Below, piece by piece: positions 1,764-33,308 of a stretch of DNA of 37,277 nt. Made by a program: the position numbers and the translations under genes. The first letter of the stretch is position 1. Every line of letters begins with the position of its first letter. Source of the stretch: a virus (Duplodnaviria > Heunggongvirae > Uroviricota > Caudoviricetes); the IMG/VR virus record IMGVR_UViG_2711768166_000003; one strand, written 5' to 3'. The notes under the pieces were generated by a model. That model was given only the letters and a program-made list of their open reading frames with translations, searched no databases and was not told the DNA's origin.

Positions 1764-3347
1764 TTGTTATTCAAAGGAACAAGACAATTGAACACTTTCA
1801 TATTCAGAAATAATGATGAAATCGGGAAGTTAGAGGCAGAATCAGACAATTACTTAGACTCATGTTTTTTAGAGACAAACATATTCAAAGGTATTATGAA
1901 CTTTGATCCATCTGAGAAAAATCCAGATTTTACGAAAAGAATCATCGTTGGAAGAACTGGTAGCGGAAAGTCAGCGATTTTAAGGAAGATTATCGACGAA
2001 GAAAGCATAAAGTTTTCTGATAAGATTGAAGCAGAAAACACTATTTTTGAACATGTTAAAAACAATGTCTTTATTTCATCCCTAAATGATAGTGGAATTG
2101 ACTTGAGAGTTTTTTATAAGTCTTTATGGTTACATGCGCTACTAATAAAAGTCATTCCAGCCTTACATCGGTCAACTTATCAAAGCTTTTTTAATAAAAT
2201 TCAAGACTTAATTGGTGGGAAAAAGAAGTCATATAATCCAGAGTTGGCAAATGAATATATCGAACAATTTAAGGACGTATTTTTTAATGACAAGGCTTTA
2301 GTGGAAATAAGCAACAAAATGCAGAGTGAATTATCTTCTAAGATAGGTATAAAAGGTATAGATCTTGGAGGTAAACTTGGTCGCGAAGACACTCAGAAAG
2401 TGCAGTCTGAAACATCCAGTTATGTAAGCAGAGAGTTAATCAGAAAACAAAAGGAATTAATAAAAATATTAAATGAAGAGTTTTCTGAAGTTGGACAGTT
2501 TAGGATAGTTATAAGCATTGATGATCTTGATCGTTCTTGGCTGAGCTCTAGCGATATAAGATATGATTTTATAAATGCACTATTAGAAGCATTTAGGGAG
2601 TTACTTGACGTCAAGTCAGTTAAAATATTAATTTCGATTAGAACTGATATACTAATGGGTATTTACAATAAAACATTAAGGCAAGATGAGAAGGACCAGT
2701 CTCTTATTTATCCTGTATCTTGGAATAAATCAGAGATCCGAGAAATAATTGACATGCGTATTAATCACTTAATTAAAAATAAATATCAAAGCTCTCGCAC
2801 TATTACAATGAAAGATATTTTCAATTTTGAAATTGATAACGTATATGCAGATGATTATATTTTAGACAGAACAATGTTAAGACCTAGAGATGCAATAAGT
2901 TTTGTAAATTATTGCTTAAAGGAGTGTGATGGGCACGTAAGTATTAATCAAGATATAGTTTTAATGGCAGAAGAGAAGTTTTTTTCTTCTAGGAAAAGAG
3001 CATTGGTGTCGGAATGGGGAACTATTTACAAAAATATTTCAGGTTACATAGACGCCTTATCTTTGTTGGAAAAACATGAATTTTCATTAGAATCAATTGG
3101 AGACGATAATAAAAATGACATTCTAACTTATATTCTTGATAGAGTTCCATCAGATATCGAAGATGATTTACACTCCAAAATAGTAATGAACTTTGATGAA
3201 TTAATAAAAGTATGGTTTATTGTTGGAATTATAGGGATAAAGAGGACTGAAACCTTAATAATATACTCTTCATATGATAAACCCGATCTTGATATCACTG
3301 ATATCAAACGCAACTTCGTCATTCATCCTTTGTTTAATAGAAGATGA
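1764..3347 (+). CDS. AT-rich cargo P-loop NTPase, KAP-like (Walker A GRTGSGKS, Walker B VISIDDLDR); candidate defence ATPase
   Basis: 527-aa ORF; Walker A near residue 63 and hhhhDDLDR Walker B near residue 250 (long A-to-B spacing as in KAP NTPases), further ISIRTD and LRPRDA motifs. Sits between att and int. Start uncertain: track start is TTG at 1764; first in-frame ATG is at 1896; a TATAAT hexamer lies at 1755-1760. Confidence 0.7.
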   Translation: MLFKGTRQLNTFIFRNNDEIGKLEAESDNYLDSCFLETNIFKGIMNFDPSEKNPDFTKRIIVGRTGSGKSAILRKIIDEESIKFSDKIEAENTIFEHVKNNVFISSLNDSGIDLRVFYKSLWLHALLIKVIPALHRSTYQSFFNKIQDLIGGKKKSYNPELANEYIEQFKDVFFNDKALVEISNKMQSELSSKIGIKGIDLGGKLGREDTQKVQSETSSYVSRELIRKQKELIKILNEEFSEVGQFRIVISIDDLDRSWLSSSDIRYDFINALLEAFRELLDVKSVKILISIRTDILMGIYNKTLRQDEKDQSLIYPVSWNKSEIREIIDMRINHLIKNKYQSSRTITMKDIFNFEIDNVYADDYILDRTMLRPRDAISFVNYCLKECDGHVSINQDIVLMAEEKFFSSRKRALVSEWGTIYKNISGYIDALSLLEKHEFSLESIGDDNKNDILTYILDRVPSDIEDDLHSKIVMNFDELIKVWFIVGIIGIKRTETLIIYSSYDKPDLDITDIKRNFVIHPLFNRR

Positions 3348-3477: not shown

Positions 3478-4605
3478 TTACCACGCTACCTTGCTCCATC
3501 CTTTGCCTCGATCGTCATGATAACGATCGGTTTGTTGTTGCGTTTTATGGCCAAGTAGTTTTTGTGTGTCTACCCCCTGTTCTTTGTACAGACGTTCAGA
3601 TAAAGACCTTTGTTCATGGAATGTTGCTGGTGAGCCATTACCCCAGTCAATTTCTGCCAAATCTCTCGCTCTACTAAAATTCGTCGTCAATGTATTGGAT
3701 TTAACCTGCGCGCCACGTTCAGCCTGTGAAGTGGTACGAAAAAAATGCACAAGGTATGGGCTGACTGCATAGTCACGGCAGCGGGCGACTACATCGCGTA
3801 AACTCCAGTTAATTGCATTGAGGCGAAGGGAAAGCGGGATGGCGATTTTGCTCCCGGTTTTTTCTTGGATGACGTGAAGATGATCATCCCAAATATCGCT
3901 AAATTTCATTTTGGATATATCTCCCAAACGCTGCCCAGTGACCAAAGCTAGGAGCATGGCATTTCCCATGTAACGATGACTGGCGTCTGCTATATCGAAT
4001 ATTTTTTGCCATTCTTCCAGGCTGAGGCGTTGACGGGTAATTTTTCTTTTGGGTTGCTTCGTCGCAAGAGCAGGGTTATACCCTGGCGGAACTTCGCCAT
4101 AATGCTGTGCTTCCTTAAACACATCGATCAATACAGACCTAACGACTTGGGCCATTCTAGGCTGTCCAGCTGCAATATACTCATCAAGCAATTGTGCTAT
4201 ATCTCTAACATCAACGGATGAGATCAACTTCATTCCTGCTCGTTCTCTGAGCAAGGATACTGGTTTAGCTTTTTGCTTATAGGTGTTGAGTCTTATATCA
4301 CCACTTTTGAGCCTGTCATCCTGGATCGCTTGATAGCGATCTAACCAGGTTGACGTTGTGATCGCTTTTCCTTTGCTGGTTGCGATCCTATCACTGATAG
4401 CTAGAATCTGCCGGGTTCTTTGCTCAGCCAGACGAGTGTTAGCTTCAGTGGCAATAGCAATAGCTTCAGCTTCATTTGTGCCCAACGAATGAAATTTCCC
4501 GGTCACTGGATGCTTATATCGCCAATAGACTTTATTTACTTTTCTACTATAAAGCGGATACAAGTTAGGTACTGAAACATTATTTTTACGTGGTCTGGCT
4601 GCCAT
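3478..4605 (-). CDS. int: Phage integrase, tyrosine recombinase
   Basis: 375 aa; conserved catalytic elements TGQRLGD (Arg), HEQRSLSERLY (H-x-x-R) and C-terminal TDRYHD (Tyr); adjacent to att and excisionase. Confidence 0.95.
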   Translation of the reverse strand: MAARPRKNNVSVPNLYPLYSRKVNKVYWRYKHPVTGKFHSLGTNEAEAIAIATEANTRLAEQRTRQILAISDRIATSKGKAITTSTWLDRYQAIQDDRLKSGDIRLNTYKQKAKPVSLLRERAGMKLISSVDVRDIAQLLDEYIAAGQPRMAQVVRSVLIDVFKEAQHYGEVPPGYNPALATKQPKRKITRQRLSLEEWQKIFDIADASHRYMGNAMLLALVTGQRLGDISKMKFSDIWDDHLHVIQEKTGSKIAIPLSLRLNAINWSLRDVVARCRDYAVSPYLVHFFRTTSQAERGAQVKSNTLTTNFSRARDLAEIDWGNGSPATFHEQRSLSERLYKEQGVDTQKLLGHKTQQQTDRYHDDRGKGWSKVAW

Positions 4606-14519: not shown

Positions 14520-14876
14520 ATGCGTGATATGTATGAAGTAATGGATCGTTGGGGAGCTTGGGCTGCTTCAGACAATAGCGGAGTGGACTGGCAGCCGATA
14601 GCGGCTGGTTTCAAGGGACTTTTACCTCATGGCAAAAAGTCACGGATTCAGTGTGATGATGACGAAGGCATCATGATAGACAGTTGTGTGGCTCGGTTGA
14701 GAAGGTATAAACCAGAGGAATATGAGCTCATCATCGCCCACTTTGTTATCGGTATCTCATTACGCACTATTGCGAAGAAGAGAAAATGCTCTGATGGCAC
14801 AATTAGGAAGGAACTGCAAACTGCAATGGGGTTTGTTGATGGCTGTTTAGCAATGTTAGCTTATAGTATGGCATAA
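14520..14876 (+). CDS. Late-gene antiterminator Q (QuuD-type)
   Basis: MRDMYEVMDRWGAWAA ... IAAGFKGL ... SRIQCDDDEG ... CSDGTIRKELQTAMGFVDG parallels the recalled QuuD-family sequence; start at ATG 14520 after a GGAGAAAG RBS. Confidence 0.85.
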   Translation: MRDMYEVMDRWGAWAASDNSGVDWQPIAAGFKGLLPHGKKSRIQCDDDEGIMIDSCVARLRRYKPEEYELIIAHFVIGISLRTIAKKRKCSDGTIRKELQTAMGFVDGCLAMLAYSMA

Positions 14877-16070
14877 AAAATAAAATAGATTTACTGCCGA
14901 TTTTTCAAAAAAGACTGGGAACTGTTTATATCCAACGTAAATAAGGCCTCCATAAAACATGGCTGATGCGAGATATTTAACAGTTCTCATCCTTTTTTTA
15001 GCTTTATCAATCAAACCTGTAATGCTACTCTTAATACTATCTGCATTATCTTTGATTTCTTTATTTTCTTCAAACTTTAAATACTTATCGAAAGCGGACT
15101 CCACTCGAGAACGTAAGTTGTCGAATGTTTCATTGAATATCTCAATAGAAATGTAATTGACTTTTTTTATCATCCAAAGTCCTGCGATAATCAATATTGC
15201 TTCGGTTGTTTCATTAGCCTTCACTAAGCCACCAGCTGCTATTAATGCACCGGGAATAGTCAATGCTTTTGTCTGATTAGATGATATGAATTCGTTAATT
15301 TTACTCGTGAACTCAAGATTTTTCTCATCGAGTTCGTTAAGAATTTTATTTACAGAAAACCTCTTTGTGTAAATCTCATATAGTTCATCATATTTTTTCC
15401 TGACGAGTTCAGTAGAGTTAAGCAAGTCAAAGAAATTGAACGTACCATTTGCTTTAAATACTTCGTTTATGGCTGAGCGTATAACGAGCTTGCGCTCGCT
15501 TTTGTGTAAATCATTGATTTTTATTGTGTCGAGAAGCTCCTTTACAATTTCATATTTAAGAGACGAGTTCGATAAGCGATTAATCTCGCTATATTGTAAA
15601 AAATGCGTGAGTTCGACTGTATAACTTTTGTCTTCATTGGTGAAAAATAAGACAGAGCAGTCACTGTTATGATGATCAGAAATTAATGAAAGGATATCTT
15701 TCCACATAAAGAAAATATGGATTTTTTCGATGCTTTCATTCTTAGAAGTAGGGAGTATTAACGGCGTTCCGATGATATAATTTTTCGGAAGAGCGTTTTG
15801 GGTGTTTACTCTAGACCAAAAAGACTCAACATTCTCATAAATTATAGCATCATCCCAAGATGAAGCTTGGCGATCTAGCCAAATTTCATTATTTTCGATG
15901 CAGGTTGTTGCCTTTTTATAACCTATAGATTGTAACAGTCTAATTATTTCAGAACTATTTACAATAACAATGCTTTCTTCAAGACTTATGACAGTGTAGT
16001 AGCCCTCAACTCTGCTTGAGGCTCCGTTAATAATCTGCGCTAATCTTGATAAGTCATCAGCAATTGTCAT
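14856..16070 (-). CDS. AT-rich cargo gene B: protein with predicted C-terminal transmembrane helices (candidate effector)
   Basis: 404 aa; hydrophobic segments ALTIPGALIAAGGLV, AILIIAGLWMI and YLASAMFYGGLIYVGY in the last third; start ATG 2 nt after the stop of gene A; 3' end overlaps the Q gene convergently by 21 bp. Confidence 0.75.
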   Translation of the reverse strand: MTIADDLSRLAQIINGASSRVEGYYTVISLEESIVIVNSSEIIRLLQSIGYKKATTCIENNEIWLDRQASSWDDAIIYENVESFWSRVNTQNALPKNYIIGTPLILPTSKNESIEKIHIFFMWKDILSLISDHHNSDCSVLFFTNEDKSYTVELTHFLQYSEINRLSNSSLKYEIVKELLDTIKINDLHKSERKLVIRSAINEVFKANGTFNFFDLLNSTELVRKKYDELYEIYTKRFSVNKILNELDEKNLEFTSKINEFISSNQTKALTIPGALIAAGGLVKANETTEAILIIAGLWMIKKVNYISIEIFNETFDNLRSRVESAFDKYLKFEENKEIKDNADSIKSSITGLIDKAKKRMRTVKYLASAMFYGGLIYVGYKQFPVFFEKSAVNLFYFLCHTIS

Positions 16071-16072
16071 TA

Positions 16073-17248
16073 TTAGCTGTCTCTATATCTTTTGAGTTCA
16101 TCATAATTTGCCTGACTCAATTTTATCACAATTTCGCATTTGTTGTCAGTGAGAATTACAGGCTTATTTGACTTTTCGTCTCCAATAGCTCCACGCATTA
16201 TTTTCAACTTAAAATTATTGTCGTTATCTGCCACTTCAATTGTAAGCGCGCTTTCAGCTGCTTTAGGAGTTGGTTCAAATTGAGGGTCAATCTGGAAACC
16301 ATTAAGATTAACAAAATCGACAAACGTTCCCTTACATTTGTGTGAATCAGTCAGGCATGAGTCAATTATTTTTGAAATATCCTCTATCTTAACGGACTTA
16401 TTTCCGTGTTTATCTTTTGATTTTTTTTCCAGTAAGGATTTAACTTCATTGTCAATAGTATCACGCAGTACACGACCGAGTGAGTTTTTACTAGCAAAAA
16501 TATCTATAGCACTGAATAATTGCTGAATGCTTCTTTTATTGTCCGAATCATGTCGGCAACCTAATGAGTCTTTGAAAAAATCGCTTTTAGATTTACCTTG
16601 CAAGAAATGTACATATGAGTCACCCTTGTTTTCTGGATAACTGGCTTCGAATAAAGTTAAATCGAACATCGCAGCCTGCCGTAAGGCATCGGTATTAATT
16701 GGATTTAATCTTGTTGGGGTCAACTTATCCGAATCAAAGTCATAGGCGCTTTGTTTATCAACCATTACGATTAGAAGTTTCCCCAAATCCTCTGGTTCGG
16801 TAGACTTATAGTGGATGAAAACAACGCTCCCCCCCTGAAGTTGGGCAACTCTCGATTCGTTATTAGCATTATGTTTAAGCTTCTCTATTATAGCTCTAGA
16901 TAAATCAATGAATTCATTATTTTTATTAATGTATTTTTTTAGGATCGTAGGAATGGATGAAGGGTTGTGATCTGAGTCTAGGAAGTTATGAAATTTGTTT
17001 TTTCGGCTAAATTTTTTCTCAATTCTGGTTATGAATTCAGATGTGACTTCATTTTTTAGATCCCAAACTTCACCTAATCGATAATCAAATGCTCTTGAAT
17101 CATTTTTTTCAAGATTTGCTGTTACAGCACCAATAGGAAAGTACGATTGTTTGCCCAGCACTACAACATGAGGCGTGGCACCGCATTTATCGCAAGCTAC
17201 AGTTGGGTCGTCAAGAACATTGCCACATTCTAAACAAGTTATATCCAT
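16073..17248 (-). CDS. AT-rich cargo gene A: N-terminal zinc ribbon plus NA37/YejK-like nucleoid-associated domain
   Basis: 391 aa; N-terminal CLECG-x12-CDKCG; central region aligns by eye to YejK (GGSVVFIHY vs GGFVLFCHY; ...DLT...FL.GK...). Family assignment is from memory, not a search. Confidence 0.7.
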   Translation of the reverse strand: MDITCLECGNVLDDPTVACDKCGATPHVVVLGKQSYFPIGAVTANLEKNDSRAFDYRLGEVWDLKNEVTSEFITRIEKKFSRKNKFHNFLDSDHNPSSIPTILKKYINKNNEFIDLSRAIIEKLKHNANNESRVAQLQGGSVVFIHYKSTEPEDLGKLLIVMVDKQSAYDFDSDKLTPTRLNPINTDALRQAAMFDLTLFEASYPENKGDSYVHFLQGKSKSDFFKDSLGCRHDSDNKRSIQQLFSAIDIFASKNSLGRVLRDTIDNEVKSLLEKKSKDKHGNKSVKIEDISKIIDSCLTDSHKCKGTFVDFVNLNGFQIDPQFEPTPKAAESALTIEVADNDNNFKLKIMRGAIGDEKSNKPVILTDNKCEIVIKLSQANYDELKRYRDS

Positions 17249-27666: not shown

Positions 27667-27837
27667 ATGTTTGTGAAACCTGTTAAAGGGCGGTCAGTTC
27701 CTGACCCTGCCCGCGGCGACCTTTTGCCCGCCGAGGGGCGAAATGTTGATGAGAACAACTACTGGCTGCGCCGTGAAGCCGCGGGTGATATCCGGCGCGT
27801 GAATAAAAAGGTGAACACCGATGACGATAAGCTTTAA
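27667..27837 (+). CDS. Small conserved tail-module protein (below the track size cutoff)
   Basis: ATG at 27667 opens a 56-codon frame (MFVKPVKGRSVPDPARGDLLPAEGRNVDENNYWLRREAAGDIRRVNKKVNTDDDKL) ending by overlapping the sheath gene start. Confidence 0.45.
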   Translation: MFVKPVKGRSVPDPARGDLLPAEGRNVDENNYWLRREAAGDIRRVNKKVNTDDDKL

Positions 27838-29317
27838 CACCATTCCGTCGAATACGCTGGTTCCGCTGTTTTATGCGGAAATGGATAACCAGGCGGCGAA
27901 TACTGCACAGGACAGCGGGGCATCGTTGCTGATTGGTCACGCCAATAACGGTACAGAGATTGTTGCCAACAGTCTGGTGCTGATGCCGTCGGCAGACTAT
28001 GCACGCCAGATTTGTGGTGCGGGAAGTCAGCTGGCGCGTATGGTCGAGGCTTATCGCCAGACTGACCCGTTTGGCGAGCTGTATGTGATTGCCGTTCCGG
28101 AAGCCACAGGCGCGGCGGCAACGGTTACGCTGACGGTGACCGGGGCGGCAACCGAAACCGGCACGGTGAATGTTTATGTGGGACGTACCCGCGTGCAGGC
28201 ATCGGTGACCAACGGCGATAACGTCGCGACGATTGCCAGCAGTATCCAGGATGCCATCAATGCCGTTCCGGCCCTGCCGTTTACGGCCTCATCTTCGGCT
28301 GGCGTGGTCACACTGACCGCGCGTCATAAGGGGCTTTGCGGGAATGAAATTCCTGTCAGCCTCAATTACTACGGCTTTGGTGGGGGCGAAGTGCTGCCAG
28401 CGGGCGTACAGATTGCCGTGGCGACGGGGACCGCCGGAACGGGCGCTCCGGTTCTCACCGGCGCGGTGGCTGCAATGGCGGATGAGCCGTTTGATTATAT
28501 CGGCCTGCCGTTCAACGACACGGGCTCCGTTAACACGCTGGTGACCGAGATGAACGATACCAGCGGTCGCTGGAGCTATGCGCGTCAGCTGTATGGTCAT
28601 GTGTATACGGCAAAGATCGGCACGCTGTCAGAACTGGTGACCGCAGGTGACCAGTTTAACCAGCAGCACATTACCCTGGCGGGGTACGAAAAAGACACCC
28701 AGACGCCTGCCGACGAGCTGGCGGCAAGCCGTACCGCCCGCGCAGCGGTGTTTATTCGCAACGATCCTGCACGTCCCACGCAGACCGGTGAGCTGGTGGG
28801 TATGCTGCCTGCGCCGAAGGGGAAACGGTTCACGATGACCGAGCAGCAGACCCTGCTGTCTCATGGCGTGGCAACGGCGTATGTCGAAAGCGGGGTGCTG
28901 CGCATTCAGCGTGATGTCACCACGTACAGGAAAAACGCTTACGGGGTTGCGGATAACAGCTACCTCGACAGCGAGACGCTGCATACCAGTGCGTATGTAC
29001 TGCGCAAACTGAAATCCGTCATTACCAGTAAGTACGGGCGTCACAAGCTTGCCAGCGACGGTACCCGCTTTGGTCCCGGTCAGGCGATTGTCACCCCGGC
29101 GGTGATCAAAGGGGAACTGCTGGCAACCTACCGTCAGCTTGAGCGTGCGGGGATCGTGGAAAACTACGAACTTTTTAAGCAGTACCTGGTTGTGGAGCGT
29201 GATGCCAGCGATCCGAACCGCCTGAATACGCTGTTCCCGCCTGACTATGTTAACCAGTTGCGTGTCTTTGCCGTGGTTAATCAGTTCCGTCTTCAGTATT
29301 CAGAGGAGTCTGCATAA
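27821..29317 (+). CDS. Contractile tail sheath protein (Mu gpL-type)
   Basis: 498 aa; immediately followed by the tail tube gene. Confidence 0.9.
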   Translation: MTISFNTIPSNTLVPLFYAEMDNQAANTAQDSGASLLIGHANNGTEIVANSLVLMPSADYARQICGAGSQLARMVEAYRQTDPFGELYVIAVPEATGAAATVTLTVTGAATETGTVNVYVGRTRVQASVTNGDNVATIASSIQDAINAVPALPFTASSSAGVVTLTARHKGLCGNEIPVSLNYYGFGGGEVLPAGVQIAVATGTAGTGAPVLTGAVAAMADEPFDYIGLPFNDTGSVNTLVTEMNDTSGRWSYARQLYGHVYTAKIGTLSELVTAGDQFNQQHITLAGYEKDTQTPADELAASRTARAAVFIRNDPARPTQTGELVGMLPAPKGKRFTMTEQQTLLSHGVATAYVESGVLRIQRDVTTYRKNAYGVADNSYLDSETLHTSAYVLRKLKSVITSKYGRHKLASDGTRFGPGQAIVTPAVIKGELLATYRQLERAGIVENYELFKQYLVVERDASDPNRLNTLFPPDYVNQLRVFAVVNQFRLQYSEESA

Positions 29318-29673
29318 TGGCCCGTATCGGGGGAACCTGTTATTTCAAAATTGACGGTCAGCAGCTATCGCTGACCGGCGGCATTGAGGTGCCCATGAAC
29401 AGGACGGTCAATGATGACATCATCGGCCTGGATGGTTCAGTGGACCGCAAGGAAACTCACCGTGCGCCTTATGTTAAAGGGACCTTCAAGGTGCCGAAGA
29501 ATTTTCCGGTGAGCAAAATCACCTCGTCTGATGAGATGACCATCACTGCCGAGCTGGCGAACGGTCAGGTCTATGTACTGTCGTCTGCCTGGCTGCACGG
29601 CGAAGCGAACCATAATGCCGAAGAAGGCACGGTCGATATTGAGTTCCACGGTGAAGAAGGGGATTACCAGTAA
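29317..29673 (+). CDS. Tail tube protein (Mu gpM-type)
   Basis: 118 aa; between sheath and chaperone genes. Confidence 0.85.
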   Translation: MARIGGTCYFKIDGQQLSLTGGIEVPMNRTVNDDIIGLDGSVDRKETHRAPYVKGTFKVPKNFPVSKITSSDEMTITAELANGQVYVLSSAWLHGEANHNAEEGTVDIEFHGEEGDYQ

Positions 29674-29942
29674 TGAAAGAGCTTGAGTTAAAGAAATCGA
29701 TTACTGCTCATGGCGAGACACTCTCCGTACTGGAGTTTGATGAGCCCACCGGGAAGGATGTCCGCGAGCTGGGGTATCCCTACCAGATGAATCAGGATGA
29801 GTCCGTCAGACTTCTGGCGCATGTGGTGTCGAAATACATTGTGCGGCTGGCGAAAGTGCCGCAAAGCTCTGTCGACCAGATGTCTCCCGCAGATCTGAAT
29901 GCGGCGGCGTGGCTTGTGGCCGGTTTTTTCCTCCAGGCCTGA
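29673..29942 (+). CDS. Tail assembly chaperone (short form)
   Basis: 89 aa; lies between the tube and tape measure genes; ends just after a slippery heptamer. Confidence 0.75.
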   Translation: MKELELKKSITAHGETLSVLEFDEPTGKDVRELGYPYQMNQDESVRLLAHVVSKYIVRLAKVPQSSVDQMSPADLNAAAWLVAGFFLQA

Positions 29943-30091
29943 CGGCTGAATACCTCACTGATCGCTTCTTTGACTGCGCCAGCTACTGGCGCATTAATCC
30001 CTTCGAATTGCTGAATATGCCGATCAGTGAAATTCCCTTACTGGTCAGTCAGGCAAACAGGATAGAGCAGGAGAAACGCACACATGGCTGA
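29673..30091 (+). CDS. Tail assembly chaperone, frameshift-extended form (G/GT-like)
   Basis: Fusion of frame 29673 up to the slippery site with the -1 frame ORF (...GRFFPPGLTAEYLTDRFFDCASYWRINPFELLNMPISEIPLLVSQANRIEQEKRTHG). Confidence 0.55.
29924..29930 (+). promoter_or_regulatory. Programmed -1 ribosomal frameshift site (slippery heptamer T_TTT_TTC) in the tail assembly chaperone
   Basis: In the frame of 29673 the codons are GGT TTT TTC; a -1 slip enters the frame of ORF 29909..30091, which runs to a stop at 30089-30091, overlapping the tape measure start. Confidence 0.6.
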
Positions 30092-31919
30092 ATTTGAGCT
30101 TAAGGCGTTGATCACCGGTGTCGACAGGCTTTCTCCCGCACTGTCGAAAATGCAAAAGAAAATCCGGGGATTTAAACGTCAGGCGGAAGAAGCGTCACAG
30201 GGTGGGCTGGCGCTTGGTGGCGGGCTGGCAGCGGGTCTGACGCTTTCCCTGAAATCTTATGCCGATCAGGAAAACGCCGCCACCGGGCTGAAAGTTGCCA
30301 TGATGGATGCGAACGGTGAGGTCGGAAAGAGCTTTCAGGACATCAATAAACTGGCTATTGGCCTGGGTAACCAGCTACCCGGCACAACGGCTGATTTTCA
30401 GAATATGATGCAGATGCTGGTGCGTCAGGGGATCCCGGCAGAAAACATTCTTGGCGGTGTGGGTAAAGCGACGGCTTATCTTGCGGTACAACTGAAAAAA
30501 ACACCGGAAGCGGCTGCTGAGTTTGCCGCAAAGATGCAGGATGCTACCGGAACGGCATCAGAAGACATGATGGGGCTGTTCGACACAATTCAGAAGGCGT
30601 TTTATCTGGGCGTTGACGATACCAACATGTTGTCCTTTTTCACTAAAACCAGTTCTATTCTGAAGATGGTGAATAAGGACGGTCTTCAGGCTGCCCAGAG
30701 CCTTGCCCCCATCAGCGTCATGATGGATCAGATGGGGATGAACGGGGAGTCGGCAGGTAATGCCCTGCGAAAAGTTATTCAGTCTGGATTAAGCGTTAAG
30801 AAAATCAGGGACGTCAATAAAGTCATGGCCCGCCAGAAACTCGGGGTACAGCTCGATTTTACTGACAGCAAAGGAAGTTTTGGCGGTCTTGATAACATGT
30901 TTAAGCAACTGACAAAGCTGCGAAAACTGACCGACGTTAAGCGAACAGGTGTACTTAAGGCAATATTTGGTGATGATGCCGAAACCCTTCAGGTGGTCAA
31001 TGCGCTGATCGATAAAGGAAAGGATGGTTACGATCAGATCCAGCAAAAGATGAATAAACAGGCCAGCCTGAATAAACGTGTTCAGGCACAGCTTGGTACG
31101 CTGTCCAACCTGTGGGAGGCAATGACGGGGACCGCAACTAACGGCCTTGCGGCTATTGGTGGCGCATTTTCTGATGACGCTAAAAACATCACGCAGTGGC
31201 TGGGGGAGTTGGGGGAAAAATTCACGAAGTTTGCGGATGAAAATCCCCGGGTTATTCGCGGCGTCGTCGGGCTTGCTGCCGGTCTTGCGATTCTGAAACT
31301 GGGATTGATGGGCGTTGGCGGTGCCATCAGTATTGTCAGCAGGATTATGTCGATGACGCCGATTGGCATGATTGCGACGGCGATAGCCCTGGCTGCGGGA
31401 TTAATTATCACTAACTGGGATGTTGTCGGACCTTATTTTAAGAAACTCTGGGAAACCATTGGTCCTTATTTTGAGGCTGGCTGGGAACTCCTTAAGAAAG
31501 TTTTTGCCTGGTCGCCGCTGGGTATGGTGATCAATAACTGGGGGCCGGTTGTTAAGTGGTTTCAGGATATGTGGGACAAGCTGAAGCCAATTATTGAGTG
31601 GTTTACCGACAGTTCCGGTGACACGGTCGATGCCATTAACTCTGCGCAGTGGGGCGCGGGTGCTTATGATGCTTATGGGACGGGAATACCGGCGCGGGGA
31701 TACACACCTTATCCGGCGGTAGATCTGGCTCAGTCAAACAACGCCTCCGATGCCACAGGCCCGAATCCCTTCATGATTAACAAAGCTTCTGCGCCAAAAG
31801 TTGATGGTGAGATCAAGGTCTCTTTTGTGAATTCGCCTCCGGGTATGCGGGTTATGGAAACGCGATCCAGCGGTTTTGATGTCAGCCATGATGTTGGCTA
31901 TACGCGCTTTGGCAGGTAA
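30084..31919 (+). CDS. Tail tape measure protein
   Basis: 611 aa, largely alpha-helical and Gly/Ala-rich with hydrophobic C-terminal segments; follows the frameshifted chaperone. Confidence 0.9.
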   Translation: MAEFELKALITGVDRLSPALSKMQKKIRGFKRQAEEASQGGLALGGGLAAGLTLSLKSYADQENAATGLKVAMMDANGEVGKSFQDINKLAIGLGNQLPGTTADFQNMMQMLVRQGIPAENILGGVGKATAYLAVQLKKTPEAAAEFAAKMQDATGTASEDMMGLFDTIQKAFYLGVDDTNMLSFFTKTSSILKMVNKDGLQAAQSLAPISVMMDQMGMNGESAGNALRKVIQSGLSVKKIRDVNKVMARQKLGVQLDFTDSKGSFGGLDNMFKQLTKLRKLTDVKRTGVLKAIFGDDAETLQVVNALIDKGKDGYDQIQQKMNKQASLNKRVQAQLGTLSNLWEAMTGTATNGLAAIGGAFSDDAKNITQWLGELGEKFTKFADENPRVIRGVVGLAAGLAILKLGLMGVGGAISIVSRIMSMTPIGMIATAIALAAGLIITNWDVVGPYFKKLWETIGPYFEAGWELLKKVFAWSPLGMVINNWGPVVKWFQDMWDKLKPIIEWFTDSSGDTVDAINSAQWGAGAYDAYGTGIPARGYTPYPAVDLAQSNNASDATGPNPFMINKASAPKVDGEIKVSFVNSPPGMRVMETRSSGFDVSHDVGYTRFGR

Positions 31920-31979
31920 TGAAAAATTAATCTGTTAATGAGTCCCACTCCGGTGGGATTTTTTATGTACGGAGTTTAT

Positions 31980-33308
31980 ATGACGTGGAAAGACAGACTT
32001 CAGGACGCGTCATTTCGCGGTGTGCCGTTTAAGGTTGAAGAAGAAAGTGCGGGAACCGGTCGTCGTGTGGAAACGCACGAATACCCGAACCGCGACAAAC
32101 CCTATACCGAAGACCTGGGGAAAATCACTTTCCGCCCGTCCATCACGGCTTATGTGGTGGGAGATGACTGCTTTGACCAGCGCGATCGCCTGATTGACGC
32201 GCTGAATAAACCCGGTCCCGGCACGCTTGTCCATCCGACATACGGTGAGCTGAAAGTCTGTGTTGACGGGGAAGTTCGGGTCAGCACATCGAAAAGTGAA
32301 GGGCGTATTGTCCGCTTTGACCTAAAGTTTGTCGAAGCAGGAGAGCTCTCTTACCCCATATCAGGTGCGGCGACGGCGCAGACGCTGATGTCATCCTGTT
32401 CTGCACTGGATGACTGCATCAGTGACAGCTTCAGCGGTTTCAGTATCGATGGCGTGGCGGATTTTGTGCAGAACGACGTCGTTGGTAATGTCAGCACAAT
32501 GCTTGGGTATGTTTCTGATGCGATGAAAGTGGTGGATTCTGCCGTATCGGATGCGGCCAGGCTGTTGCAGGGGGATATCTCGGTACTTCTGCCGCCACCA
32601 TCGTCAGGCAAAAATTTCGTTGAGCAGGTGCAGAAAATGTGGCGTACCGGGAAACGCCTTTACGGTAACGCCAGCGACCTGGTCACCATGATCAAAACGC
32701 TTTCTGGTGTCAGCCTTGGCAGCGATCTGCAACCGCGCGGCGTCTGGAAAACGGACAGTAAAACCACCGCCACGGCGACGCAGCAGCGTAACGTGGTTGC
32801 CAGCACCCTTCGTACGACTGCAATCAGCGAAGCGGCGTATGCCGTTACCCGATTGCCTGCGCCAACAACTTCCGCGGTGATGCAGAATGCCGCAGTGGGG
32901 CAGGCAACAACACCCGCGCAGAGCACTGGCTGGCCTTCCGTCACGCATCCGGCACTGAACAATGCACCGGCGGTGAAAAGCACGGTTGACCTGCCGACGT
33001 GGGAAGAACTGACTGACATTCGCGACACACTGAATACGGCAATTGATAAGGAGTTGTCCCGTACAACCAGTGATGCGCTGTTTCTGGCGCTGCGCCGGGT
33101 GAAAGCAGATCTGAATGCGGATATCAACACGCGCCTTGAACAGTCTGCACGGATCATTCAGCGCACGCCGGATGAGGTTTTACCCGCGCTGGTGCTGGCG
33201 GCGACCTGGTTTGATAACGCGGCGCGTGACGCGGACATTATCCGGCGTAATGCCATTACGCATCCCGGCTTTGTGCCGGTGATCCCTCTGAAGGTGCCAG
33301 TGCAATGA
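31980..33308 (+). CDS. Mu gpN-like tail / DNA circulation protein
   Basis: Start at ATG 31980 after GGAG; N-terminus MTWKDRLQDASFRGVPFKVEEES typical of this family. Confidence 0.8.
   Translation: MTWKDRLQDASFRGVPFKVEEESAGTGRRVETHEYPNRDKPYTEDLGKITFRPSITAYVVGDDCFDQRDRLIDALNKPGPGTLVHPTYGELKVCVDGEVRVSTSKSEGRIVRFDLKFVEAGELSYPISGAATAQTLMSSCSALDDCISDSFSGFSIDGVADFVQNDVVGNVSTMLGYVSDAMKVVDSAVSDAARLLQGDISVLLPPPSSGKNFVEQVQKMWRTGKRLYGNASDLVTMIKTLSGVSLGSDLQPRGVWKTDSKTTATATQQRNVVASTLRTTAISEAAYAVTRLPAPTTSAVMQNAAVGQATTPAQSTGWPSVTHPALNNAPAVKSTVDLPTWEELTDIRDTLNTAIDKELSRTTSDALFLALRRVKADLNADINTRLEQSARIIQRTPDEVLPALVLAATWFDNAARDADIIRRNAITHPGFVPVIPLKVPVQ

What the first reader, a model, noticed from the sequence alone, without database searches (positions are those of the whole stretch)
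29673..30091. Programmed -1 frameshift in the tail assembly chaperone (slippery T_TTT_TTC at 29924..29930)
The chaperone frame ends 12 nt after a canonical X_XXY_YYZ heptamer (GGT TTT TTC read as T TTT TTC), and the -1 frame continues for about 53 more codons up to the tape measure start. This reproduces the conserved G/GT-type frameshift found between tail tube and tape measure genes in long-tailed phages.
Basis: partly seen in the sequence, partly recalled or inferred. Interest (0 to 1): 0.45.

Follow-up and report, generated by a model that had tools for sequence, protein, structure and literature searches.

The report
Tail chaperone −1 frameshift, P2-type
An SfV-like prophage of E. coli carries the well-known ribosomal "slip back one base" signal that lets one tail-assembly chaperone gene make a short and a long protein. 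The signal is real and strongly conserved, but it is an ordinary, merely unannotated, example of a known mechanism.

Summary
An 89-codon tail assembly chaperone gene (29673-29942, Pfam PF10109) lies between the tail tube and tape measure genes. It contains T_TTT_TTC (29924-29930) in the correct register, 9 nt before its TGA. The -1 frame then runs 53 codons to TGA 30089-30091, overlapping the tape measure ATG (30084) by 8 nt.

Comparative evidence is strong:
- All 23 related loci from other genomes and 4 further phages (99% down to 38% chaperone identity) keep NNT TTT TTY at the same codon. The preceding residue changes (Gly/Arg/Asn) and neighbouring synonymous sites vary freely.
- The -1 frame always stays open to the tape measure start, although the zero-frame stop moves 9-63 nt.
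- The extension is under purifying selection only in the -1 frame (dN/dS 0.13 against 1.2-1.5).
- It has no conserved start codon.
- The site aligns with the annotated P2 E/E+E' frameshift (GGTTTTTTG).

No conserved stimulatory structure lies at canonical spacing. A clade-limited long-range helix 17-24 nt downstream is unexplained. None of the ten public records I inspected annotates the fusion.

Verdict: a genuine programmed -1 frameshift giving 9.9 and 15.8 kDa products. It is a new, unannotated member of a well-known kind, and of low interest.

The parts
29317..29673 (+). Tail tube gene (118 aa). Its TAA (29671-29673) overlaps the chaperone ATG by 1 nt (TAATG).
   Evidence: PF10618 Tail_tube, E=6e-33; annotated 'phage tail tube protein' in EC28 and SfV; sequence read.
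29673..29942 (+). Zero-frame tail assembly chaperone ORF (89 aa, 9.9 kDa; analogue of P2 gpE and lambda gpG), ending ...VAGFFLQA*.
   Evidence: PF10109 Phage_TAC_7, 54.7 bits against cut-off 25; phrog_166 tail protein; translation; mass.
29924..29930 (+). Slippery heptamer T_TTT_TTC (zero-frame codons GGT TTT TTC). P-site tRNA-Phe moves from UUU to UUU and A-site tRNA-Phe from UUC to UUU after a -1 slip.
   Evidence: NNT TTT TTY is invariant at this codon in 23/23 loci from other genomes and in SfIV, ST64B, phiP27, BgVeeders33 and P2. U_UU.U_UU.C is listed among the efficient E. coli motifs (PMC4066793).
29930..30091 (+). -1 frame extension (53 codons PPGLTAEYLTDRFFDCASYWRINPFELLNMPISEIPLLVSQANRIEQEKRTHG plus TGA). 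It is the analogue of P2 E' and the lambda T domain. Full product is join(29673..29930, 29930..30091): 139 aa, 15.8 kDa.
   Evidence: Conserved motif F-D-x-A-x-[YF]-W-[RK]-[IL]-x-P...Q-A-x-R-I across relatives. dN/dS 0.13 in this frame against 1.2-1.5 in the others. No conserved start codon. Matches phrog_32181 'unknown function'.
30069..30074 (+). Shine-Dalgarno-like AGGAGA for the tape measure gene, lying inside the -1 extension, 10 nt before the ATG.
   Evidence: Read from the sequence; inference.
30084..31919 (+). Tape measure protein gene (611 aa). Its ATG overlaps the stop of the -1 extension by 8 nt (ATGGCTGA), the same geometry as P2 E'/T (ATGAGTAA).
   Evidence: PF10145 PhageMin_Tail, E=1.4e-26.
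29948..30035 (+). Possible clade-specific long-range RNA structure. Helix 29955-29964 / 30021-30030 encloses hairpin UGCGCCAG-CUA-CUGGCGCA (29975-29993). Role unresolved and not at canonical stimulator spacing.
   Evidence: z=-3.44 for 29931-30030. 12 pairs with changes on both sides against 6.4±1.8 in shuffles. The helix is kept only in the close clade and L097, and is lost in L095, L096 and L098-L103. RNAalifold keeps only the inner hairpin, without covariation.

Best explanation
This is a programmed -1 ribosomal frameshift in the tail assembly chaperone gene of an SfV-like (Mu-like tail) prophage, homologous to P2 E/E+E'.

Most ribosomes translate 29673-29942 and release an 89-aa chaperone. 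A minority pause with tRNA-Phe in both the P and A sites on T_TTT_TTC (29924-29930) and slip one base back. Both tRNAs can re-pair with UUU. These ribosomes continue in the -1 frame for 53 codons to TGA 30089-30091, giving a 139-aa fusion (...VAGFF|PPGLTAEY...).

By analogy with lambda gpG/gpGT, the shared N-terminal domain would coat the tape measure protein, and the rare C-terminal extension would recruit the tube protein. A fixed low ratio of long to short product would then control tail assembly, and neither product would end up in the virion.

Shown here: the sequence architecture, its conservation, selection on the -1 frame, and nucleotide-level selection on the heptamer. Inferred: that the slip is ribosomal, its efficiency, and the roles of the two products.
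For: (1) Architecture. The heptamer is in register 9 nt before the stop. The -1 frame is open for 53 codons and ends at the tape measure start, while the +1 frame is closed.

(2) Family and position. The chaperone is PF10109 and lies between tube (PF10618) and tape measure (PF10145) in a sheath, tube, chaperone, tape measure, DNA-circulation, gp44-like hub order.

(3) Conservation. In 23 loci from other species (Shigella, Edwardsiella, Buttiauxella, Kluyvera, Citrobacter, Pantoea, Kosakonia, Derxia and others; 99 to 38% identity) T_TTT_TTC/T sits at the same codon. The -1 frame stays open for 50-59 codons to the tape measure start, although the zero-frame stop moves from 9 to 63 nt downstream. 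The same holds in SfIV, ST64B, phiP27 and BgVeeders33.

(4) Selection on nucleotides, not residues. The Gly codon is GGT and the first Phe codon is TTT in 23/23 loci. Background usage in the window is 32% GGT and 59% TTT. The adjacent Ala and Val codons use all synonymous variants. In SfIV/phiP27 and ST64B the preceding residue is Arg (CGT) or Asn (AAT), and its third base is still T.

(5) The extension is coding in the -1 frame. dN/dS is 0.13 against 1.54 and 1.24 in the other frames. Variable sites by codon position are 28/18/40. A conserved peptide motif is present.

(6) The extension cannot be an independent gene. No ATG/GTG/TTG precedes the conserved part of the extension in 13 of the 23 loci, and three of them have no in-frame start codon anywhere in the -1 ORF. 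Upstream -1-frame stops lie as close as 18 nt. In a library of 1.8 billion proteins the extension appears only as short orphan ORF calls of 53-70 aa that span the FF site. The one long hit that truly contains it (P0001) is an indel-ridden assembly product, and the other long hits are unrelated repeat proteins.

(7) Homology to a documented case. P2 E+E' is annotated with a -1 shift at GGTTTTTTG. A profile of the fused proteins aligns with it over 118 columns spanning both domains, with the GF site in register (hhalign E=6.8e-5). The 8-nt overlap with the tape measure ATG is the same.

(8) Literature. U_UU.U_UU.C is among the efficient E. coli -1 motifs (PMC4066793). The tail chaperone frameshift is widely conserved (PMC5009743, PMC3091744).
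Against: - No protein-level evidence exists for this locus, and none of the ten public records I inspected annotates it.
- No conserved stimulatory hairpin or pseudoknot lies 5-9 nt downstream (z=0.15 for the first 60 nt). There is no conserved SD-like element upstream.
- In one reporter context, UUUUUUC without stimulators gave only 0.121% shifting, against 7.6% with the IS3 pseudoknot (supplement of PMC4066793). The efficiency here therefore cannot be predicted and could be low.
- Three of 80 nearly identical IMG/VR loci carry variants that break the canonical heptamer (GGGTTTTTC twice, GGGTTTTTTCT once), and two carry a 1-nt insertion that fuses the frames. These may be sequencing errors or decaying prophages.
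- Homology of the extension alone to P2 E' is weak (hhalign E=0.0035, probability 9%; no Pfam hit).
- Sequence alone cannot separate ribosomal from transcriptional slippage on the T6 run.
Confidence: 0.9

Rival explanations
1. Transcriptional slippage. RNA polymerase occasionally adds one extra U on the T6 run (29924-29929), producing mRNAs in which the chaperone and the extension are in one frame. The same 139-aa-type fusion is then made by standard translation.
For: The site is a homopolymer run (T6 here, T7 in L101, L102, L105, L106, SfIV, ST64B and phiP27). Conservation of GGT and TTT would also preserve run length. Runs of U/A are discussed as transcriptional slippage sites (PMC4066793, PMC5009743). 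A genomic 1-nt insertion (L005/L006) does give an in-frame fusion, which shows the outcome is equivalent.
Against: From my own knowledge, known productive bacterial slippage sites are longer, typically 8 or more A/T. The run is always in exact X_XXY_YYZ register, which matters only for the ribosome, although register is also tied to the conserved G-F-F residues. The homologous P2 site is annotated and described as a translational frameshift (PMC3091744 citing Christie 2002 and Xu 2004). U_UU.U_UU.C is an experimentally efficient ribosomal motif (PMC4066793).
Confidence: 0.05
2. The -1 ORF is an independent small gene, the 60-aa 'hypothetical protein' 29909-30091 starting at GTG 29909. It would be translated from its own start with no recoding.
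For: Some annotators call it this way (WP_001314907.1 in JNEC-KY203, URC08943.1 in vB_EcoM-689R6; phrog_32181). A GTG exists at 29909.
Against: No start codon precedes the conserved part of the extension in 13 of 23 relatives. Where a start exists it is a TTG/ATG/GTG that falls on the conserved Trp codon region, with no Shine-Dalgarno sequence. Conservation of the peptide begins directly at the heptamer. The synonymous-site invariance of GGT TTT is not explained by this model.
Confidence: 0.02
3. Chance or relic. The heptamer and the open -1 frame are fortuitous or a decaying remnant, and only the 89-aa chaperone is functional.
For: In-register heptamers are common (38 in the window). The motif alone is weakly shifty without stimulators. 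A few close relatives lack the canonical heptamer.
Against: dN/dS is 0.13 specifically in the -1 frame. The -1 frame is open in 23/23 loci from other genomes and in 4 further phages and P2, despite saturated synonymous divergence. The heptamer is invariant at synonymous sites.
Confidence: 0.02

Closest known systems
Phage P2 gpE / gpE+E' programmed -1 frameshift (TTTTTTG; Christie et al. 2002, as cited in PMC3091744; annotated in NC_001895)
   Same: - Same Pfam family for the N-terminal domain (PF10109).
- Same local context GG-TTTTTT-N at the ...V-x-G-F... position near the C-terminus of that domain.
- -1 extension of 53-57 codons with a shared motif (D-x-A-x-x-[FYH]-W-x-x-x-P-x-E-L...A-x-R).
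- The extension stop overlaps the tape measure ATG by 8 nt.
- No stimulatory hairpin reported or found.
- Contractile-tail phage (PMC3091744).
   Different: - The seventh base is C or T rather than G.
- Sequence identity is only about 23% (BLASTP not significant, E=0.61).
- The extension does not hit any Pfam model.
- The surrounding tail and baseplate module is Mu-like (DNA circulation protein, gp44-like hub), not P2-like.
Phage lambda gpG / gpGT -1 frameshift (G_GGA_AAG; Levin et al. 1993; Xu et al. 2004, 2013, 2014, as summarised in PMC5009743)
   Same: Same gene position (between the major tail protein and the tape measure), the same two-product logic, a low-level shift without an obligatory downstream structure, and the presumed division of labour (the N-domain binds the tape measure, the extension binds the tube subunit).
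   Different: No detectable sequence similarity, a different heptamer and different tRNAs (Phe/Phe against Gly/Lys), and a non-contractile against a contractile tail. The functions of the two products are not demonstrated for this family.
Phage Mu gp41 tail assembly chaperone with a -2 frameshift (Xu et al. 2004, as cited in PMC5009743 and PMC2628397)
   Same: Same Pfam family name ('E, or 41 or 14'). Same Mu-type tail module: gp38-like DUF2635, sheath L, tube M, chaperone, tape measure, DNA circulation N, hub P. The Mu extension shows a faint match to the extension profile (hhalign E=0.0015).
   Different: Mu shifts to the other frame (+1/-2). In this window that frame is closed by stops at 29947, 29959, 29971 and beyond. 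Mu gp41 is 145 aa with a G-rich site (…CGGGGGCGA…) rather than a T-run.

Membership tests
Tail assembly chaperone programmed frameshift (lambda G/GT type, Xu et al. 2004) | Located between the major tail/tube gene and the tape measure gene | tested here: met
   Tube PF10618 at 29317-29673, chaperone at 29673-29942, tape measure PF10145 at 30084-31919.
Tail assembly chaperone programmed frameshift (lambda G/GT type, Xu et al. 2004) | Two overlapping ORFs; the downstream one is in the -1 frame, has no start of its own and ends at or near the tape measure start | tested here: met
   -1 frame open 29801-30091 and ending 8 nt into the tape measure gene. No start codon before the conserved part of the extension in 13/23 relatives.
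Tail assembly chaperone programmed frameshift (lambda G/GT type, Xu et al. 2004) | X_XXY_YYZ slippery heptamer in zero-frame register inside the overlap | tested here: met
   T_TTT_TTC at 29924-29930. It is the only slippery motif in the window bounded by the nearest upstream -1 stop in any relative (-18 nt) and the zero-frame stop (+9 nt).
Tail assembly chaperone programmed frameshift (lambda G/GT type, Xu et al. 2004) | Site and two-ORF arrangement conserved among relatives regardless of sequence divergence | tested here: met
   23/23 loci from other genomes, plus 4 further phages and P2. dN/dS 0.13 in the -1 frame.
Tail assembly chaperone programmed frameshift (lambda G/GT type, Xu et al. 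2004) | Both a short and a frameshift-extended protein are made, at a low fixed ratio | not testable with these tools
   Needs a western blot, mass spectrometry, a reporter or Ribo-seq. Predicted masses are 9,921 and 15,770 Da.
Tail assembly chaperone programmed frameshift (lambda G/GT type, Xu et al. 2004) | Both products are required for tail assembly and absent from virions | not testable with these tools
   Genetic and biochemical test only.
P2 gpE / gpE+E' family (Pfam PF10109 Phage_TAC_7) | N-terminal domain matches PF10109 above the gathering score | tested here: met
   54.7 bits against cut-off 25, residues 4-86.
P2 gpE / gpE+E' family (Pfam PF10109 Phage_TAC_7) | Frameshift site GGTTTTTTN at the homologous position at the end of the domain | tested here: met
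   P2 reads GTC GGT TTT TTG and the window reads GCC GGT TTT TTC. hhalign puts VAGF and VVGF in the same columns.
P2 gpE / gpE+E' family (Pfam PF10109 Phage_TAC_7) | -1 extension homologous to P2 E' | tested here: inconclusive
   Full-length profile against P2 E+E': E=6.8e-5, probability 63%. Extension alone: E=0.0035, probability 9%. No Pfam family matched the extension at E up to 10 except a spurious hit. The shared motif is visible by eye.
Mu gp41 type (-2 frameshift) | Extension encoded in the +1/-2 frame | tested here: not met
   The +1 frame has stops at 29947, 29959, 29971, 29995 and 30028. In Mu the extension is in the +1/-2 frame.
Programmed transcriptional slippage sites | Long homopolymeric A/T run (typically 8 or more, from my own knowledge), independent of reading register | tested here: not met
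   The run is T6 (T7 in some relatives) and always in X_XXY_YYZ register. This lowers the slippage reading but does not exclude it.
Canonical stimulated -1 PRF signals (dnaX / IS3 / IS911 type) | Conserved hairpin or pseudoknot 5-9 nt downstream, and/or an SD-like element 6-17 nt upstream | tested here: not met
   The first 60 nt downstream give z=0.15. The consensus structure keeps only a hairpin 45 nt downstream, without covariation. No Rfam hit. The upstream G-rich tract is not a conserved SD.

The most novel reading that the evidence does not exclude
In the SfV/E. coli clade, the long-range helix (29955-29964 with 30021-30030, extendable to 29948-30035) that encloses the conserved GCGCCAG/CUGGCGC hairpin may be a functional RNA element. 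It would act at a non-canonical distance (17-24 nt) from the slippery site. It could tune the short-to-long chaperone ratio, or couple chaperone decoding to translation of the tape measure gene. This would be a lineage-specific add-on to an otherwise stimulator-free P2-type signal.
Probability: 0.1. Interest if true: 0.4.

Novelty: new member of a known kind. Interest (0 to 1): 0.2.

Why it matters
The main value is for annotation. This prophage family occurs in about 1,090 of 5,426 complete E. coli genomes and in the Shigella serotype-converting phages SfI, SfII, SfV and SfIV. In every record I inspected, the 139-aa fusion product is missing. The extension is either left as a 140-nt 'intergenic gap' or called as an orphan 60-aa hypothetical protein (phrog_32181, 'unknown function').

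Recognising the fusion gives a function to that orphan family. It also supplies a clean comparative example in which selection acts on the nucleotide heptamer (NNT TTT TTY) rather than on the encoded residues. Finally, it shows that Mu-like tail modules can carry a P2-type -1 signal, whereas Mu itself uses -2. It does not change the understanding of the mechanism.

Tried and rejected
- **Pfam for the extension.** Scanning the extension alone at E up to 10 gave only a spurious GalP_UDP_tr_C hit, so no Pfam family covers it.
- **PDB sequence search.** A profile of the fused proteins gave nothing meaningful (E of 0.16 or worse).
- **Structure prediction.** I did not pursue it because it would not decide the question.
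- **'Fused' database proteins.** P0001-P0006 looked like natural in-frame fusions. Their sequences show indels at different places, so they are error-ridden assemblies. I rejected them as evidence.
- **Representative-library hits.** P0123-P0125 are repetitive proteins with summed weak repeats, and I rejected them as spurious.
- **Terminator-like hit.** TGGCTTGTGGCCG + T-run at 29910-29922 is a weak 5-bp stem. The hit count (2) is within the shuffle expectation (0.8±1.0), and the stem is absent in relatives. I rejected it.
- **Small hairpin GGCC-UGAC-GGCU, 5 nt after the heptamer.** It is not significant and is broken in L088 and others.
- **Rfam scan of 29600-30300.** Only a sub-threshold CRISPR-DR hit.
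- **Upstream SD-like stimulator.** Only L098 has GGGAGGTGG, so it is not conserved.
- **Literature.** Xu et al. 2004 and Christie et al. 2002 are not held in the library. Full-text searches for SfV or ST64B together with frameshift terms found no description of this locus. I could not check whether Xu et al.'s survey tables already list SfV.
- **PADLOC scan of the low-GC cargo genes.** No hits.
Full report
**What the window is.** Over 27800-32000 the window is 97-98% identical to the Shigella/E. coli temperate myophages SfI, SfII and SfV. Over 29600-30200 it is 100% identical to a prophage in the E. coli EC28 chromosome. Related sequence occurs in 1,086 of 5,426 complete E. coli genomes. The local gene order is:
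- sheath, 27821-29317 (Phage_sheath domains)
- tube, 29317-29673 (PF10618)
- an 89-codon ORF, 29673-29942 (PF10109, 'Phage tail assembly chaperone proteins, E, or 41 or 14'; 54.7 bits against a cut-off of 25)
- tape measure, 30084-31919 (PF10145)
- DNA circulation protein, then a Mu gp44-like hub

**The observation.** The zero-frame codons are GCC GGT TTT TTC CTC CAG GCC TGA. T_TTT_TTC therefore lies at 29924-29930 in X_XXY_YYZ register, three sense codons before the stop at 29940-29942. The -1 frame is open from 29801 to TGA 30089-30091. From the heptamer it encodes 53 residues (PPGLTAEYLTDRFFDCASYWRINPFELLNMPISEIPLLVSQANRIEQEKRTHG). Its stop overlaps the tape measure ATG (30084) by 8 nt (ATGGCTGA). 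The +1/-2 frame is full of stops.

In-register heptamers are common: 38 in about 10,500 codons of the window. Only this one sits next to a stop, opens a long -1 extension and ends at the next gene.

**Comparative test.** A scan of one genome per species with an alignment of chaperone homologues returned 23 loci from Shigella, Edwardsiella, Buttiauxella, Kluyvera, Citrobacter, Atlantibacter, Scandinavium, Erwinia, Pantoea, Kosakonia, Enterobacter and Derxia. Chaperone identity ranged from 99% to 38%.
- In all 23 loci, T_TTT_TTC or T_TTT_TTT lies at the same codon in the same register.
- The -1 frame remains open for 50-59 codons and ends at or beside the tape measure start.
- The zero-frame stop wanders between 9 and 63 nt downstream of the heptamer.
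- The same holds in SfIV, ST64B, phiP27 and Burkholderia phage BgVeeders33.

**Selection on the nucleotides.** The Gly codon before the Phe pair is GGT in 23/23 loci, and the first Phe codon is TTT in 23/23. Window-wide usage is 32% GGT and 59% TTT. The neighbouring Ala and Val codons use every synonymous variant. In SfIV/phiP27 and ST64B the preceding residue is Arg (CGT) or Asn (AAT), yet its third base is still T. Selection is therefore on the nucleotide heptamer, not on the amino acids.

**Is the extension translated, and how is it reached?** I used 11 sequences with an ungapped 53-codon extension and took only the part downstream of the zero-frame stop. dN/dS was 0.13 in the -1 frame, against 1.54 and 1.24 in the other two frames. 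Variable sites by codon position were 28/18/40. The translated extensions share a motif, F-D-x-A-x-[YF]-W-[RK]-[IL]-x-P...L...Q-A-x-R-I, down to the most distant loci.

The extension has no start codon of its own that relatives conserve:
- 13 of 23 loci have no ATG/GTG/TTG before the conserved part of the extension.
- Three of them have no in-frame start codon anywhere in the -1 ORF.
- In some loci the nearest upstream -1-frame stop is only 18-24 nt before the heptamer.

Taken together with the zero-frame stop, the frame change must occur within about 30 nt centred on the heptamer. An exhaustive HMMER search of 1.8 billion representative proteins found the extension only as short orphan ORF calls (53-70 aa) that begin just upstream of the FF site. 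One 137-aa hit proved to be an indel-ridden assembly product, and three long hits were unrelated repetitive proteins.

**Relation to known cases.** P2 (NC_001895) is annotated with gene E, E+E' and a '-1 translational frameshift' site. Its sequence there is GTC GGT TTT TTG. The -1 extension has 57 codons, and its stop overlaps the T (tape measure) ATG by 8 nt.
- A profile of the fused proteins from this family aligns with P2 E+E' over 118 columns spanning both domains. The G-F residues of the slippery site fall in the same columns (hhalign E=6.8e-5).
- Pairwise BLASTP is not significant (E=0.61), and the extension alone aligns only weakly (E=0.0035).
- The extension matches phrog_32181 ('unknown function') and no Pfam family.
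- The literature describes the lambda G/GT frameshift, its conservation in long-tailed phages, the higher efficiency in P2-like phages, and the absence of a stimulatory hairpin in P2 (PMC5009743, PMC3091744).
- Phage Mu, whose tail module this prophage resembles, is reported to use a -2 shift (PMC5009743, PMC2628397). In Mu the open extension is indeed in the +1/-2 frame after a G-rich site.

This locus is therefore a P2-type signal inside a Mu-type tail module.

**Stimulators.** The 60 nt after the heptamer fold no better than shuffles (z=0.15). RNAalifold on 16 relatives keeps only a hairpin, UGCGCCAG-NUA-CUGGCGCA, 45 nt downstream. It coincides with the conserved codons C-A-S-Y-W-R and shows no covariation. 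Rfam has nothing. No SD-like element is conserved upstream.

In the reporter of Sharma et al., U_UU.U_UU.C belongs to the efficient class. It gave 0.121% shifting without a stimulator, 0.89% with the IS911 stimulators and 7.6% with the IS3 pseudoknot. The P2 motif UUUUUUG gave 0.118%, 0.25% and 0.77% (PMC4066793 supplement). The efficiency at this locus therefore cannot be predicted from sequence.

**One loose end.** In the window, 29955-29964 can pair perfectly with 30021-30030 around the inner hairpin (z=-3.44 for 29931-30030). On the 16-sequence alignment this structure has 12 pairs with changes on both sides, against 6.4±1.8 in shuffles (0/500). Cells paired are 78.8%, against 24-40% in slid controls. 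Several points argue for caution:
- The structure was derived from the window itself.
- The helix is kept only in the close clade and L097.
- It is lost in L095, L096 and L098-L103, which still keep the heptamer and the ORF.
- It starts 17-24 nt from the heptamer, too far for a canonical stimulator.

I leave it unexplained.

**Variation among near-identical copies.** Of 80 IMG/VR loci at about 99% identity, 75 keep GGTTTTTTC. Two carry an extra G that fuses the two frames. Three have variants (GGGTTTTTC twice, GGGTTTTTTCT once) that break the canonical heptamer. Whether these are sequencing errors or decaying prophages cannot be told.

**Annotation status.** None of the ten records I inspected annotates a joined CDS: SfV, vB_EcoM-689R6, EC28, JNEC-KY203, SfIV, ST64B, phiP27, BgVeeders33, AH07 and F1055. 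The region is either left empty or called as a 60-aa hypothetical protein. I could not read Xu et al. 2004, so I could not check whether SfV-type phages were already in their survey.

**Verdict.** The finding is correct in both observation and interpretation. The best explanation (confidence about 0.9) is a programmed -1 ribosomal frameshift on T_TTT_TTC that yields an 89-aa (9.9 kDa) and a 139-aa (15.8 kDa) tail assembly chaperone, homologous to P2 E/E+E'. Transcriptional slippage on the T6 run is the only rival that sequence analysis cannot exclude (about 0.05). This is an ordinary, unannotated member of a well-known kind, and interest is low (0.2).

Noticed in passing
L005:1745-1765 and L006:1745-1765 (IMG/VR UViG_2585427747_000001 and 2585427730_000011): A 1-nt G insertion (GCT GGG TTT TTT CCT CCA) puts the chaperone and the extension in one frame, so these two copies encode only the 139-aa fusion. 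This is either a sequencing error or a natural fusion-only mutant.
   Followed up: partly
L030, L061, L067 (about positions 1745-1765): Three of 80 near-identical copies break the canonical heptamer. L061 and L067 read GGG TTT TTC, a synonymous GGT to GGG change that leaves only five T's. L030 reads GGG TTT TTT CTC. It is unknown whether these prophages are functional.
   Followed up: partly
window 29948-30035: Long-range helix (29955-29964 with 30021-30030) around a conserved GCGCCAG/CUGGCGC hairpin inside the -1 extension. It scores z=-3.44 and has more double-sided changes than shuffles, but it is clade-limited and too far from the heptamer to be a canonical stimulator.
   Followed up: partly
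window 29930-29938: The first codons after the slip encode Pro-Pro-Gly (FF|PPG). From general knowledge, this is a strong EF-P-dependent stalling motif. It is present only in the closest clade; relatives have PA, PQ, PS, PR or PG. It could lower the yield of the long product but is not conserved.
   Followed up: no
window 29909-30091; JNEC-KY203 WP_001314907.1; vB_EcoM-689R6 URC08943.1; phrog_32181: The -1 extension is called as a stand-alone 60-aa 'hypothetical protein' in some records and forms a PHROG of 'unknown function'. In other records the 140 nt between the chaperone and the tape measure gene are left unannotated.
   Followed up: yes
window 14856-17248 (- strand): A low-GC (33-36% against about 55% around it) two-gene cassette lies between the early/regulatory genes and the lysis genes. 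It comprises a 403-aa ORF with no Pfam hit and a 390-aa ORF with PF04245 (NA37 nucleoid-associated protein). It is probably acquired cargo (a moron). PADLOC gave no hit.
   Followed up: partly
window 1764-3347 (+ strand): A low-GC (31-35%) 527-aa ORF with a weak KAP-family P-loop NTPase / STAND-like match lies just outside the lambda-type integrase gene (3478-4605, - strand). PADLOC gave no hit.
   Followed up: partly
window 14880 (- strand), near the 3' end of ORF 14856-16070: This is the only other in-register heptamer (T_TTT_TTA) in the window that lies close to a stop and extends past it in the -1 frame (23 codons, 53 nt beyond the stop). It lies in AT-rich DNA, was not examined in relatives, and is probably chance.
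   Followed up: no
window 29317 and 29671-29675; 30084-30091: The late tail genes are tightly coupled. The sheath/tube and tube/chaperone junctions overlap by 1 nt (TAATG at the tube/chaperone junction). The extension and the tape measure gene overlap by 8 nt (ATGGCTGA), the same geometry as P2 E'/T.
   Followed up: yes
P0123, P0124, P0125: Three long repetitive proteins (998, 216 and 561 aa) scored E of 1e-9 or better against the 53-aa extension through many summed weak repeat matches. This is a reminder that multi-stretch phmmer E-values for short queries can mislead.
   Followed up: yes
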